Shown here: piece by piece, positions 19,693-26,293 of the stretch
How positions within the stretch are numbered: position 1 is the stretch's first letter
How the letters are laid out: every line of letters begins with the position of its first letter
From: Candidatus Micrarchaeota archaeon
Lineage (GTDB): Archaea > Micrarchaeota > Micrarchaeia > Norongarragalinales > Norongarragalinaceae
Reading direction: 5' to 3'
Assembly (NCBI GenBank): GCA_043800965.1
Contig: JAZDMM010000109.1
Location: 1-27,882, forward strand
Length of the DNA stretch: 27,882 nt
Position numbers and translations under genes: made by a program
Notes under the pieces: model-generated
The model's input: the letters and a program-made list of their open reading frames with translations, nothing else
What the model was told of the DNA's origin: nothing
Databases searched by the model: none

Positions 19693-19953
19693 GCTGGGAT
19701 GGCAGAGCGGTAATGCGCACGCCTGGAAAAGCTTTTTCTTGGTTGCTCGGTTTTGAGCGTACCAGAAGAAAAATCCGTAAAGCGTGTGGGCGCGAGCCCT
19801 CCTGAGTTCGAGACCACCCCTTTCTTTTCATAAAGAAAGGTGCGGTCGTCCGCCAAAGAAACGCACGCAAACCGTTCGGGTTTGCGGCGCACGACAAATC
19901 TGTGGATTTGACGTGACATGGACGACATTGGTGAACAAATCTCAGTCCCAGCG
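19693..19953 (+). tRNA. tRNA-Ser(GGA) with two introns (19729-19780 at 37/38; 19812-19938 at 58/59)
   Basis: Acceptor GCTGGGA/TCCCAGC with G73, anticodon stem CACGC/GCGTG, variable arm GGGC-GCGA-GCCC, T stem CTGAG/CTCAG. Intron 2 has a clean BHB: GTTC/GAAC helix, bulges GA|G and AA|A, ACCA/TGGT helix. TATA-like TTTTTATA lies about 30 nt upstream. Confidence 0.9.
19817..19861 (+). repeat. tRNA-associated palindromic element, copy B (in tRNA-Ser intron 2)
   Basis: CCTTTCTTT-TCAT-AAAGAAAGG-T then CGCCAAAGAAA. Confidence 0.75.
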
Positions 19954-19982
19954 TTTTAATTTTATTTGAAACGGATGTTGAA

Positions 19983-24265: not shown

Positions 24266-24266
24266 C

Positions 24267-24317
24267 TGAAGCCCCTTTTCTTTGAAAAAGCAAAAGGTGC
24301 TTCATCGCCAAAAGAAA
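24267..24317 (+). repeat. tRNA-associated palindromic element, copy D (3' of tRNA-Pro)
   Basis: TGAAGC-CCCTTTTCTTT-GAA-AAAGCAAAAGG-T-GCTTCA then TCGCCAAAAGAAA. Confidence 0.72.
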
Positions 24318-24369
24318 GAGTTTTGTTGAAAAGAAAGCTTTAACTTTCAATGTTGGCTAAAATTGTTTC

Positions 24370-24942
24370 ATGGCTCAGAGAGAAGAAAGGGAGTTGAAAC
24401 CTACTCCAGCGGAAAAGGAACGGATTAAGCGAGGCCGGCAACAGGCGGTTAAAAAGAACATCGCCAAACTGCTTTTAGCTACTCATCTAGCTGCTTTTAC
24501 GGCAGGCGCTTTTGCGACTGAAAAGCTTCTGGTTCCTTTTCAGAAAAAACAAGCTGCTAACGCCGAGTATTACCGCCAAGTACAGCGCTTGAGTTTTGCC
24601 GACGAATGGGGCCGCGTTAGCCCGTTGTTCGCTTCACGGCCTTCTCCTACTGTTTTACGCGGAGTAGAATCATTGGGGCTGCCTATTCACGATGTAATAA
24701 ACACGTTGAACATTTACATGCGCAACAACAAGCTAAACCAGCGAGAGATTACTCGCCTAGAAGGCCAGAGGCAGAACGAACCCGAACGCGTAGGCAACAT
24801 CATAAAAATATTGACTTTCGGGCTCCAAAATCCTGAGGCGGCTGAAGCCTTGCGTTTGCACGGCGCTAATTTCTACGTTCATTCCGCTTTATTCGACATG
24901 CCCGCGGATTTCTACGAGTTTAAAGAAGCTCTGAAGAAGTGA
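24370..24942 (+). CDS. Hypothetical protein with one predicted TM segment
   Basis: 190-aa ORF with a hydrophobic stretch LLLATHLAAFTAGAFA; promoter-like AAAGCTTTAACT at 24334-24345. Confidence 0.65.
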   Translation: MAQREERELKPTPAEKERIKRGRQQAVKKNIAKLLLATHLAAFTAGAFATEKLLVPFQKKQAANAEYYRQVQRLSFADEWGRVSPLFASRPSPTVLRGVESLGLPIHDVINTLNIYMRNNKLNQREITRLEGQRQNEPERVGNIIKILTFGLQNPEAAEALRLHGANFYVHSALFDMPADFYEFKEALKK

Positions 24943-25358
24943 CTGCGTTAATGCCCGAGGAACAAAAACAACTAGCCAAGCCCAAGCAGCTTCAGGAAGA
25001 GGAAGCGCGTTTAAGGCACAATCTGCGCAACCGAGTTTTCCTGGCAATGGGCGTAGTTGTTATAATGTGGCTGCTTGGTTCGTTGCTGTTTCACAACATC
25101 GAGGACTGGAGCTTTACTGACTCGATGTACTTTTCCGCATCCACTCTGACAACGGTAGGCTACGGGGATCTTGTTCCGCGGACTCAACTCGGGAAACTCG
25201 TTTCAATCCCGTTCATGTTCTTCGGAGTAGGCGTCATTTTATACAGCATTTCGATAGTCGGTGCGTATTACGCCGAAAGGCAGTTTGAAGCCTTGACTTC
25301 TTACGGTTTCCACCGACTCCGCCGCCTCCCTAAATTCGCTCGAAGAAAGCGCGAGTAA
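24939..25358 (+). CDS. Two-TM potassium channel (KcsA-like, Ion_trans_2)
   Basis: Selectivity filter STLTTVGYGD between two TM helices; no RCK domain. Confidence 0.92.
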   Translation: MTALMPEEQKQLAKPKQLQEEEARLRHNLRNRVFLAMGVVVIMWLLGSLLFHNIEDWSFTDSMYFSASTLTTVGYGDLVPRTQLGKLVSIPFMFFGVGVILYSISIVGAYYAERQFEALTSYGFHRLRRLPKFARRKRE

Positions 25359-25370
25359 AAGCTTTAACTA
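25358..25370 (+). promoter_or_regulatory. BRE/TATA promoter of tRNA-Gly
   Basis: AAAGCTTTAACTA about 30 nt upstream of the tRNA; the same 12-mer occurs at 24334-24345. Confidence 0.55.
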
Positions 25371-25399
25371 CGTTTTCCGCCACTATTCTTTATTCAATT

Positions 25400-25642
25400 G
25401 CGCCGATGGTCTAATGGTATGATCCAAGCCCTCCATTGCCCACCCCTTTCTTTTTAGAAAAAAGAAAGGTCTGGGCGAGCGCCAAAGAAAAACGAACGAT
25501 GGCGGCCGCCAAAAAGAAAACCCGTTACGCTTCAAACGCGGAAGGGGTCGGAGGACTAAGCTCCGGGGAAACCAACGCTTTGGTTGCCCCTTCGGCTTAG
25601 AGAGGCAAGCTTGAGGCCCGGGTTCGATTCCCGGTCGGCGCA
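25400..25642 (+). tRNA. tRNA-Gly(TCC) with a 172-nt intron at 37/38 (25436-25607)
   Basis: Acceptor GCGCCGA/TCGGCGC with A73, anticodon stem CAAGC/GCTTG, T arm CCGGG-TTCGATT-CCCGG. Splice motif: CCTC/GAGG central helix with a CA|A bulge. Confidence 0.85.
25438..25492 (+). repeat. tRNA-associated palindromic element, copy C (in tRNA-Gly intron)
   Basis: GCCCA-CC-CCTTTCTTTTT-AGA-AAAAAGAAAGG-TC-TGGGC then CGCCAAAGAAAAA. Confidence 0.78.
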
Positions 25643-25712
25643 CTCTGTTTGTTCACTGGAAACTAGGTTTCAGCTGGCTTATAACGCAAAAAAACCAGGT
25701 AAGCTAAGCCCA

Positions 25713-25755: not shown

Positions 25756-25986
25756 ATGGTGAGTGACGTGACTACGGTTCAGTTGAACAAGTCGGTTTTG
25801 GGTTCTCTCAAGCAAGTCAAGGAATACCCGCGGCAGACTTACAACGAATTGATTTCGCGCATGATAGTTGTTTTCAAGGGAGCGAAGCAGAGCAACCAGT
25901 ACGACGAGTTCTTGCATAAGATTCAGCAAGAGAAAATGACCGAATTGTGGGATAATAAGGCAGACGAGGCTTGGGAGAATGCTTAA
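25756..25986 (+). CDS. Putative antitoxin (RHH-like N-terminus, acidic tail)
   Basis: TTVQL...L..LK....QTYNELI.R RHH-like pattern, acidic tail WDNKADEAWE; overlaps the downstream PemK/MazF gene by 8 nt. Confidence 0.75.
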   Translation: MVSDVTTVQLNKSVLGSLKQVKEYPRQTYNELISRMIVVFKGAKQSNQYDEFLHKIQQEKMTELWDNKADEAWENA

Positions 25987-26293
25987 GTCCGGAGACGTTG
26001 TTTTGGCTAAAATTCAATTTACCGACACTTTCGAGGTTAAGACCCGCCCTGCATTGGTGTTGTTTGAAGAAATGGGTAATGTAGTGATAGCCGGTATAAC
26101 CAGTAATCTGCAAATGAAGGGAATCCCGCTTTCTAAACGAGAGGGCGCGGTAAAAGAGAGTGTCATAAAATTAAACTACGTTTTTACTGTTTCGAGCGCA
26201 ATGGTTTCTAGAGTGCTTTTTCACTTGAATAAGGAAAAGAAAGAGCTGGTGTTTAAGGAGCTTAGCAAGCGCTTGAACGCTTTAAATCATTAG
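25979..26293 (+). CDS. PemK/MazF-family toxin (mRNA interferase)
   Basis: GDVVLA.I.FTD..E.K.RPALVL, IAGITSN motifs. Confidence 0.88.
   Translation: MLKSGDVVLAKIQFTDTFEVKTRPALVLFEEMGNVVIAGITSNLQMKGIPLSKREGAVKESVIKLNYVFTVSSAMVSRVLFHLNKEKKELVFKELSKRLNALNH

What the first reader, a model, noticed from the sequence alone, without database searches (positions are those of the whole stretch)
25436..25607. 172-nt multi-hairpin intron in tRNA-Gly with modular internal duplications
The intron is unusually long for a non-coding archaeal tRNA intron. It contains element copy C and a tandem repeat of its tail (CGCCAAAGAAAAA at about 25480; CGCCAAAAAGAAAA at about 25507). It also has a T-loop-like hairpin CGC-TTCAAAC-GCG and a terminal hairpin CTAAG...CTTAG. 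A second GGAGG at about 25549 can also pair with the exon CCTCC, suggesting nested or sequential insertion (seen). No C/D boxes or ORF were found, unlike the known guide-RNA-carrying tRNA-Trp intron. A new class of intron-derived RNA is possible (inference).
Basis: partly seen in the sequence, partly recalled or inferred. Interest (0 to 1): 0.7.

Follow-up and report, generated by a model that had tools for sequence, protein, structure and literature searches.

The report
tRNA-Gly intron filled by mobile repeats
The 172-base intron in this archaeal glycine tRNA gene is real, and it is long because a 161-base composite of two dispersed, structured repeat elements sits inside what a close relative carries as an ordinary 42-base intron; one of the repeats shows an unusual three-strand (mirror-repeat) covariation.

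Summary
Window 25400-25642 encodes tRNA-Gly(UCC) with a 172-nt intron (25436-25607) at the canonical 37/38 site.

The intron is not a one-off. Positions 25440-25600 are one copy of a composite of two repeat families.
- M1 is a pyrimidine/purine hairpin plus a purine tail. It has about 32-38 copies in this 835-kb Micrarchaeota MAG and occurs in 31 of 41 genomes searched.
- M2 is a roughly 60-nt pseudoknot-like element. It has about 22 copies here and occurs in 13 of 41 genomes.

The same M1+M2 composite lies outside any tRNA gene on contig C29. Contigs from two groundwater metagenomes carry the orthologous locus with 31 other bases in place of the 161. That gives a 42-nt intron with a canonical bulge-helix-bulge motif.

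The second GGAGG belongs to a covarying M2 helix, so it is not a relic splice helix. The genome encodes an epsilon2-type splicing endonuclease of broad specificity, and RtcB.

The surprising result concerns M1. Its tail is a mirror image of the hairpin's purine strand in 77 of 78 copies. This fits a triple helix, but that structure is not proven.

No RNA data exist, so splicing and the fate of the intron are inferred.

The parts
25400..25435 (+). tRNA-Gly(UCC) exon 1. Acceptor GCGCCGA, D arm, anticodon stem CAAGC, loop C32 C33 U34 C35 C36 A37.
   Evidence: Manual cloverleaf. ARAGORN on the spliced sequence. C33 also occurs in an intronless orthologue, L089.
25436..25607 (+). 172-nt intron at the canonical 37/38 position.
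25608..25642 (+). tRNA-Gly exon 2. A38, GCTTG, 4-nt variable loop, T arm, TCGGCGC, A73. CCA is not encoded.
25430..25433 (+). Exon strand (CCTC, positions 32-35) of the 4-bp central splice helix.
   Evidence: It pairs with GAGG at 25602-25605. The fold with this helix enforced is -99.9 kcal/mol against an MFE of -100.3.
25602..25608 (+). Intron strand GAGG (25602-25605) of the central helix, followed by the canonical 3-nt bulge C-A|A that holds the 3' splice site (25607/25608).
   Evidence: The same AGAGGCA end is kept in the short-intron allele.
25440..25600 (+). 161-nt composite repeat element (M1 + insert + M2) that makes up the intron body.
   Evidence: It is replaced by 31 other letters in contigs of runs X1 and X2 that carry the same locus. 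It is collinear with C29:13635-13753.
25436..25478 (+). M1 hairpin. P1 is TTGCCCA (25436-25442) paired with TGGGCGA (25472-25478). Pyrimidine strand Y is 25445-25455, the loop is 25456-25458, and purine strand R is 25459-25469.
   Evidence: CM R1 scores 71.4 bits, E = 1e-14.
25484..25492 (+). M1 purine tail R'1 (AAAGAAAAA), the mirror image of R. It is preceded by CC, as Y is.
   Evidence: Mirror match 9/9 against 7/9 for a direct repeat. The rule holds in 77 of 78 copies.
25496..25540 (+). Insert absent from the C29 composite copy. It holds the palindrome GGCGGCCGCC, a second purine tail R'2 (25511-25520, a direct copy of R) and the 3-bp hairpin CGC/TTCAAAC/GCG (25528-25540).
   Evidence: Pairwise alignment. 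Sequence.
25540..25600 (+). M2 element. Helix Ha is CGGAG (25549-25553) with CTCCG (25561-25565). Helix Hb is CTAAG (25556-25560, inside the Ha loop) with CTTAG (25596-25600). Helix Hc is 25566-25573 with 25582-25590.
   Evidence: CM R2 scores 91.5 bits. Covariation of Ha and Hb in 24 of 24 copies.

Best explanation
The locus is the functional tRNA-Gly(UCC) gene of a Micrarchaeota (DPANN) archaeon. No other tRNA with anticodon UCC was found in the 79%-complete assembly.

Its ancestral short canonical intron has been invaded by, or had its interior replaced with, a 161-nt composite of two dispersed non-coding repeat families, M1 and M2. These families colonise tRNA introns, tRNA 3' trailers and the ends of protein genes across this archaeal order.

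The pre-tRNA most likely folds as independent modules that radiate from a junction. The junction is closed by the 4-bp helix CCUC/GAGG next to the anticodon stem. The modules are the M1 hairpin, two purine tails, a small hairpin and M2.

The 3' splice site sits in a textbook 3-nt bulge. The 5' site sits in an unpaired CA just before the M1 P1 helix. This is a relaxed motif in which a junction takes the place of helix h'.

The organism's epsilon2-type endonuclease cuts both sites. RtcB then joins the exons and probably circularises the intron.

Shown here: the gene structure, repeat membership, covariation, the enzymes encoded, and the short-intron allele. Inferred: that splicing actually occurs, how the elements move, and what happens to the excised RNA.
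For: 1. The spliced sequence is a clean 71-nt tRNA-Gly(tcc). ARAGORN lists one other 'Gly(tcc)', on C39. I read it as Arg(UCU) from its CTTC/GAAG splice helix and G73. The tRNA model scan reports no anticodons.
2. A splice-competent fold is within 0.4 kcal/mol of the MFE.
3. EndA is a single 375-aa protein that matches ARMAN-2 epsilon2 EndA (4fz2) end to end, E = 1e-123. That enzyme cleaves relaxed motifs in vitro (PMC3239211). RtcB is present.
4. M1 has 32-38 copies in this genome, about half of them tRNA-associated:
   - ten sit at the 5' end of T-loop (58/59) introns;
   - three sit in anticodon-loop introns;
   - about seven start at or within about 45 nt of a tRNA 3' end;
   - the rest mostly lie just after stop codons.
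5. M1 is found in 31 of 41 genomes searched, including 22 of 24 other genomes of the family. One exact variant occurs in 71 metagenome contigs.
6. M2 has about 22 copies here and occurs in 13 of 41 genomes. Its helices covary.
7. The intron is collinear with a non-tRNA M1+M2 composite on C29.
8. Contigs from two studies carry the same locus, including the upstream channel gene. They read exon 1 plus TTGC, then 31 other letters, then AGAGGCA plus exon 2. That is a 42-nt intron with a regular h' helix.
9. Orthologous or closely related tRNA-Gly genes in relatives have introns of 0, 42, 50, 52 and 60 nt. A tRNA-Gly(CCC) in G009 has one of 148 nt.
Against: - No RNA data exist, so splicing is not shown.
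- The 5' splice site lacks a simple h' helix.
- U33 is replaced by C33, which is unusual for an elongator tRNA. An intronless orthologue (L089) has the same C33.
- No reverse transcriptase, Y1 transposase or tyrosine integrase was found in the assembly, so no mobilising enzyme can be named.
- The order-wide conservation of the M1 architecture could instead reflect a host function rather than selfish spread.
- The short allele comes from a related organism (about 92% identical flank), not the same strain. Gain here versus loss there is inferred from the orthologues.
Confidence: 0.75

Rival explanations
1. The intron, or its M1 module, is a host-selected functional RNA element rather than a passenger. 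It would be a structured cap or handle placed at tRNA processing sites and transcript 3' ends. For example, it could protect RNA ends, stabilise the excised or circular intron, or steer folding so that the splice motif forms.
For: - The M1 architecture is conserved across an order, with three-strand covariation.
- The 5' end of M1 abuts the cleavage site in introns, within 0-3 nt of the 5' splice site, and in several trailers, at position 74.
- In T-loop introns the P1a strand pairs with the intron's 3' end to form helix h'.
- First or sole copies in tRNA genes are co-oriented with the tRNA.
Against: - Copy number varies from 0 to 34 among close relatives.
- Presence varies at orthologous sites.
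- Nested, tandem and inverted copies occur.
- Intronless orthologues function without it.
- No guide-like variable region is present.
Confidence: 0.2
2. Nested or two-step splicing. An inner intron would first be removed using the second GGAGG (25550-25554) as splice helix with exon CCUCC, followed by a second cut.
For: The MFE structure does pair CCUCC with GGAGG at 25550-25554.
Against: - That GGAGG is the 5' strand of M2 helix Ha and covaries with CTCC at 25561-25564 in all 24 M2 copies.
- When it pairs with the exon, the 3' splice site is left in an 8-nt unstructured loop with no bulge-helix-bulge motif.
- The alternative fold with GAGG at 25602-25605 is isoenergetic and gives a canonical 3' bulge.
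- The short allele lacks the inner GGAGG altogether.
Confidence: 0.03
3. The gene is a decaying pseudogene, disabled by element insertion and by C33.
For: - C33 replaces the near-universal U33.
- The 5' splice site context is non-canonical.
- The assembly is only 79% complete, so another Gly(UCC) gene could be unassembled.
Against: - All four stems and the conserved D- and T-loop residues are intact.
- No other tRNA with anticodon UCC was found.
- At least 13 other tRNA genes of the genome carry the same element in introns, so they cannot all be dead.
- C33 occurs in an intronless orthologue.
Confidence: 0.05

Closest known systems
Transposed tRNA intron families of Thermoproteales (Fujishima et al. 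2010, cited in PMC4033280 and PMC3239211)
   Same: Related intron sequences recur in many different tRNA species and at several positions (37/38 and 58/59; the D loop too in metagenome contigs). The organism has a broad-specificity splicing endonuclease.
   Different: - The lineage is Micrarchaeota with an epsilon2 EndA, not Crenarchaeota with an (alpha-beta)2 enzyme.
- The shared sequence is a discrete structured module that also occurs outside tRNA genes, in trailers and at gene ends.
- The introns reach 130-170 nt.
ARMAN-2 (Ca. Micrarchaeum acidiphilum) disrupted tRNA genes (PMC3239211)
   Same: Same phylum and same EndA type. Many tRNA genes are interrupted, including in the T loop.
   Different: The introns described there are short (13 and 25 nt in the assays) and lie at 59/60 and 53/54. 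No repeated intron module was reported in the passages read.
tRNA-Trp intron carrying a C/D box guide RNA (Haloferax and other Euryarchaeota)
   Same: A long, non-coding intron at 37/38 that could give a stable excised RNA.
   Different: There are no C, D, C' or D' boxes and no guide region. Rfam gives no match.
MITEs and REP-like dispersed palindromic repeats
   Same: Short, non-coding, structured and multi-copy. They lie at gene ends and vary in copy number among relatives. Many M2 copies are flanked by direct repeats of the target.
   Different: - The M2 flanking repeats are long and variable (11-49 nt), not a fixed short target-site duplication.
- M1 has no terminal inverted repeats of its own.
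- No transposase was found.
- Insertion into tRNA loops that is then tolerated through RNA splicing is not a feature of MITEs or REPs.
ENE/MALAT1-type RNA triple helices and H-DNA mirror repeats (PMC7583470, PMC11667243)
   Same: M1 has a homopurine/homopyrimidine helix plus a third homopurine tract in mirror symmetry. This is the sequence requirement for an intramolecular triplex. The antisense strand would have the U-rich / stem-loop / U-rich / A-rich order of an ENE-like U.A-U triplex.
   Different: On the transcribed (tRNA-sense) strand the third strand is purine-rich, i.e. the anti-parallel purine motif. Evidence that RNA forms this motif is mixed (PMC7583470). No structure has been measured here.

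Membership tests
Archaeal BHB tRNA intron, canonical position | The intervening sequence lies between positions 37 and 38, and its removal restores a cloverleaf. | tested here: met
   Exons 25400-25435 and 25608-25642 give a 71-nt tRNA-Gly(tcc).
Archaeal BHB tRNA intron, canonical position | A strict hBHBh' motif: two 3-nt bulges around a 4-bp helix, flanked by two helices. | tested here: inconclusive
   - h (the anticodon stem), the 3' bulge C-A|A and the 4-bp helix CCUC/GAGG are present.
- The 5' site lies in an unpaired CA before the M1 P1 helix.
- h' is replaced by a multi-branch junction.
- The short allele does have a regular h'.
Archaeal BHB tRNA intron, canonical position | The genome encodes a splicing endonuclease able to cut relaxed motifs, and a ligase. 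| tested here: met
   An epsilon2-type EndA matches 4fz2 at E = 1e-123 over its full length. RtcB scores 585 bits.
Archaeal BHB tRNA intron, canonical position | The intron is actually excised in vivo. | not testable with these tools
   No RNA run holds the locus.
Transposed tRNA intron family | The same intron sequence occurs in different tRNA species and positions within one genome. | tested here: met
   M1 lies in 13 tRNA introns: anticodon-loop introns (Ser, Arg, Gly) and T-loop introns. ARAGORN's tentative labels for the latter include Ala, Ser, Arg, Asp, Met, Ile, Lys and His.
C/D box sRNA-bearing intron | C (RUGAUGA) and D (CUGA) boxes with a guide sequence. | tested here: not met
   None is present in 25436-25607. 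No Rfam match.
MITE | Terminal inverted repeats, a short target-site duplication of fixed length, and a related autonomous transposon. | tested here: not met
   - The M2 flanking repeats vary from 11 to 49 nt.
- M1 has no terminal inverted repeats.
- No transposase, integrase or reverse transcriptase was found in the 79%-complete assembly.
Intramolecular triple helix (H-type mirror repeat) | A homopurine/homopyrimidine duplex plus a third strand in mirror symmetry, with covariation of all three strands. | tested here: met
   - 77 of 78 copies obey the mirror rule. The direct-repeat expectation holds in only 16 of 78.
- 47 of 49 asymmetric cores fit the mirror better and none fit the direct repeat better.
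Intramolecular triple helix (H-type mirror repeat) | Physical formation of base triples. | not testable with these tools
   This needs probing, melting studies or a solved structure. In the TGCA subfamily the linker is only 2 nt, so P1 and a triplex cannot coexist (my geometric reasoning).

The most novel reading that the evidence does not exclude
M1 is a naturally selected three-stranded nucleic-acid element. Its purine tail would dock on its own pyrimidine/purine hairpin as an anti-parallel purine-motif triplex in the tRNA-sense RNA or in single-stranded DNA. On the antisense strand it would form a canonical U.A-U / C+.G-C triplex. The fold would mark, protect or help to create tRNA processing sites across Micrarchaeota and related DPANN archaea. 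If so, it would be the first natural purine-motif RNA triplex and a new family of tRNA-associated structured elements.
Probability: 0.3. Interest if true: 0.85.

Novelty: new variant of a known kind. Interest (0 to 1): 0.62.

Why it matters
This locus shows how an archaeal tRNA intron grows. A dispersed structured repeat has lodged in a short canonical intron. A relative's short-intron version of the same locus is on record, and the organism has a permissive endonuclease that would tolerate the loss of a strict splice motif. This extends the 'intron transposition' picture from Thermoproteales to DPANN archaea. It also links tRNA introns to repeats that occur outside tRNA genes.

Separately, M1 is a rare natural case in which three strands covary in mirror symmetry. 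That makes the long-debated existence of purine-motif RNA triplexes testable on a defined sequence of about 60 nt.

Tried and rejected
- Rfam: nothing at the gathering threshold for this locus. Nothing meaningful at E up to 10 over 25350-25700.
- ARAGORN: default settings miss the gene. With introns allowed it places the intron wrongly and calls the gene Ala(tgc), so I rejected that call.
- RNA evidence: no RNA holder is listed for the window, so expression, splicing and circular introns could not be examined.
- Mobilising enzymes: searches of the own genome for RVT_1, Y1_Tnp and Phage_integrase found nothing. The assembly is 79% complete, so this does not show absence.
- Viral contigs: no exact M1 match.
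- tRNA association in metagenome contigs: a crude D-loop/T-loop motif count was inconclusive (11 of 56 upstream in sense against 5-8 in the controls). Reading the flanks by eye shows D-loop, anticodon-loop, T-loop and trailer contexts, which I did not count.
- Chromosome orientation: M1 strand along the 1.3-Mb contig of G030 shows no replichore pattern (coordinates).
- K-turn reading of the P1/P2 internal loop: rejected, because there are no G.A pairs.
- Islet and neighbouring ORFs: no informative Pfam match for the ORFs beside the M1 copy at 1315. The minus-strand ORF across the tRNA has none either.
- First constrained fold: the acceptor stem was mispaired by one base. Corrected.

Full report
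**The gene**

The sequence at 25400-25642 reads as a tRNA. It has acceptor GCGCCGA/TCGGCGC with A73, a D arm with A14, G18, G19 and A21, anticodon stem CAAGC/GCTTG, and T arm CCGGG-TTCGATT-CCCGG.

Between A37 (25435) and A38 (25608) lie 172 nt. Default ARAGORN and Rfam miss the gene. ARAGORN with introns allowed finds it but misplaces the intron. Joining the two exons gives a 71-nt sequence that ARAGORN folds as tRNA-Gly(tcc).

ARAGORN lists one other 'Gly(tcc)', on C39. I read it as Arg(UCU) from its CTTC/GAAG splice helix and G73. The tRNA model scan reports no anticodons. The assembly is 835 kb in 135 contigs and 79% complete.

The anticodon loop has C33 instead of U33. An intronless orthologue in another family of the order (L089) has the same CCTCCAA loop. 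C33 is therefore a lineage trait and not an annotation error.

**The organism and its enzymes**

The best relative of the window's uL3 is a Candidatus Micrarchaeota MAG at 53% identity. The DNA recurs in groundwater metagenomes.

The genome encodes one 375-aa splicing endonuclease. It aligns end to end with ARMAN-2 epsilon2 EndA (4fz2), E = 1e-123. It also encodes RtcB. The ARMAN-2 enzyme cuts both strict and relaxed (hBH) motifs in vitro, and 56% of ARMAN-2 tRNA genes are interrupted (PMC3239211).

**The splice motif**

Exon CCUC (25430-25433) pairs with GAGG (25602-25605). Between that helix and the anticodon stem lies the 3-nt bulge C-A|A, which holds the 3' site.

The 5' site lies in an unpaired CA directly before the 7-bp P1 helix of M1. 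On the other strand the helix is preceded by the terminal helix of M2. Helix h' is thus replaced by a junction.

This fold is -99.9 kcal/mol against an MFE of -100.3. The MFE instead pairs CCUCC with the inner GGAGG.

**Repeat family M1**

The first third of the intron is one copy of a repeat that I call M1. It consists of:
- a short outer stem, P1;
- a perfect homopyrimidine/homopurine hairpin (Y, a 2-4-nt loop, R);
- a GC-rich linker of 11-18 nt;
- a purine tail R' preceded by CC.

A hairpin scan finds 32 clean copies in this genome. A covariance model (R1) finds the same copies and a few more.

Copies found in the own genome, about half of them tRNA-associated:
- Ten sit at the 5' end of introns in the T loop (58/59). 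There P1a pairs with the intron's 3' end as h', and the universal TTCR pairs with YGAA as the central helix.
- Three sit at the 5' end of anticodon-loop introns: this gene, a Ser(CGA) gene on C20 and the Arg(UCU) gene on C39.
- About seven start at or within about 45 nt of a tRNA 3' end. These include 24266 after tRNA-Pro in the window, and 1315, which follows an 11-nt duplicate of the tRNA-Leu 3' end.
- The rest mostly lie 10-70 nt after the stop codon of a same-strand ORF.

R1 matches 31 of 41 genomes searched, including 22 of 24 other genomes of the family. Copy numbers range from 0 to 34. One exact variant occurs in 71 metagenome contigs and in no viral contig.

**The mirror rule**

The tail R' is not a direct copy of R. 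It is its mirror image: read 5' to 3', it is the base-by-base complement of Y.
- In 78 copies from this genome and a dozen relatives, the number of Ts 5' of the C in Y equals the number of As 5' of the G in the tail in 77. The values are 3, 4, 5 and 6. The direct-repeat expectation holds in only 16.
- Of 49 copies with an asymmetric core, 47 fit the mirror better and none fit the direct repeat better.
- Copies with two or three Cs keep the order of the spacings (C74; L095 and L102).

Polymerases make direct or inverted repeats, not mirror repeats. Mirror symmetry kept through about 20 core variants therefore points to selection on a three-stranded interaction.

On the tRNA-sense strand this would be an anti-parallel purine-motif triplex. 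For RNA the evidence on that motif is mixed (PMC7583470). On the antisense strand it would be a canonical U.A-U triplex with one C+.G-C.

Two cautions apply.
- In the TGCA subfamily the linker is too short for P1 and a triplex to coexist.
- Some introns in relatives carry a sense copy next to exon 1 and an antisense copy next to exon 2, and their tails could simply pair with each other.

I therefore hold the triplex as the novel case, not as the main claim.

**Repeat family M2**

The last third of the intron (25540-25600) matches other places in the genome. A model (R2) finds about 22 copies here and matches in 13 of 41 genomes.

In 24 copies, helix Ha occurs as CGGCG/CGCCG, CGGAG/CTCCG, CGGTG/CACCG and CGGAA/TTCCG. 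Helix Hb occurs as GTAAG/CTTAC, CTAAG/CTTAG and GCAAG/CTTGC. Every copy is fully paired.

The 5' strand of Hb lies in the loop of Ha, so the two helices form a pseudoknot.

**The intron as a whole**

From 25440 to 25600 the intron is collinear with an M1+M2 composite at C29:13635-13753. That composite lies between two convergent ORFs and is flanked by an imperfect 14-nt direct repeat.

The intron differs from it by a 37-nt insert. The insert brings a GC palindrome, a second purine tail (25511-25520, a direct copy of R that could pair with Y) and the small hairpin at 25528-25540.

**The short allele**

Contigs from two groundwater runs in different studies cover the same locus. One also covers the 3' end of the upstream ion-channel gene, with 11 differences in 146 nt.

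They read exon 1 plus TTGC, then 31 unrelated letters, then AGAGGCA plus exon 2. That is a 42-nt intron in which UGCGCG pairs with CGC-U-GCA as a regular h' helix (my reading of the letters given).

Orthologous or closely related tRNA-Gly genes in relatives have introns of 0, 42, 50, 52 and 60 nt, and some of these consist of little more than a minimal M1. A tRNA-Gly(CCC) in G009 has a 148-nt intron. The 161-nt composite is thus a recent gain in, or replacement of the interior of, an older short intron.

**What remains open**

There is no RNA evidence. No reverse transcriptase, Y1 transposase or tyrosine integrase was found. How M1 and M2 move, and whether the excised RNA has any role, are therefore unknown.

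I tested both here.

Noticed in passing
window 19694-19955: This is a tRNA with a long variable arm, read as Ser(GGA), that carries two introns. The first is about 52 nt in the anticodon loop. The second is about 127 nt at 58/59 in the T loop, starts with an M1 copy (19809-19866) and restores a TTCGAAT loop when removed. Default ARAGORN and Rfam miss the gene.
   Followed up: partly
own genome: C76:3542-3617, C77:1993-2069, C37:1884-2009, C8:4381-4451 and others: Ten of 24 M2 copies are flanked by direct repeats of the target, 11-49 nt long. In C76 the repeat duplicates the last 16 codons and the stop of a gene, and all differences between the two copies are synonymous. In C77 both copies also keep the frame and the stop, with one amino-acid change. 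In C8 it duplicates a gene start. I know of no transposition mechanism that gives such long, variable duplications.
   Followed up: partly
window 19867-19915; C18:1340-1420(-); inside the M2 loops of C85:7207-7321 and C37:1884-2009: A third repeated module has two hairpins (CACAAAG..CTTTGTG, then GACAAA..TTTGAC). It recurs in the tRNA-Ser T-loop intron and next to M2, and it is nested inside the Hc loop of two M2 copies.
   Followed up: no
window 24266-24321 and 1315-1368: Two further M1 copies. One starts at the first base after tRNA-Pro(GGG). The other follows an 11-nt duplicate (1311-1321) of the tRNA-Leu(TAA) 3' end, beyond a 0.8-kb two-ORF insert. The M1 copy was probably the original trailer of that tRNA.
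   Followed up: partly
L089 (G039:C1:24770-24890, minus strand): An intronless tRNA-Gly(UCC) in another family of the order has the same C32-C33 anticodon loop (CCTCCAA). C33 is therefore not tied to the intron.
   Followed up: partly
L087 (G009), L141 and L146 (G006); metagenome contigs L160, L175, L205: Some tRNA introns carry two M1 copies in opposite orientation, each with its hairpin end next to an exon and its tail pointing inwards. The purine tail of one and the pyrimidine complement of the other could pair.
   Followed up: no
window 25756-26293: Directly downstream of the tRNA lies a small ORF (weak match to DUF7557) followed by a MazF/PemK-like toxin ORF, probably a type II toxin-antitoxin pair. 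Upstream (24939-25358) is a two-TM potassium-channel-like gene.
   Followed up: partly
L026 and L028 (G022, G006); L177, L189, L196: An M1 copy follows a conserved stretch of about 40 nt (…GGGGTACGAGAGTTGCACTCGTCTATTCCGATTGCTG…) in several genomes and metagenome contigs. This could be the 3' end of another structured RNA gene.
   Followed up: no
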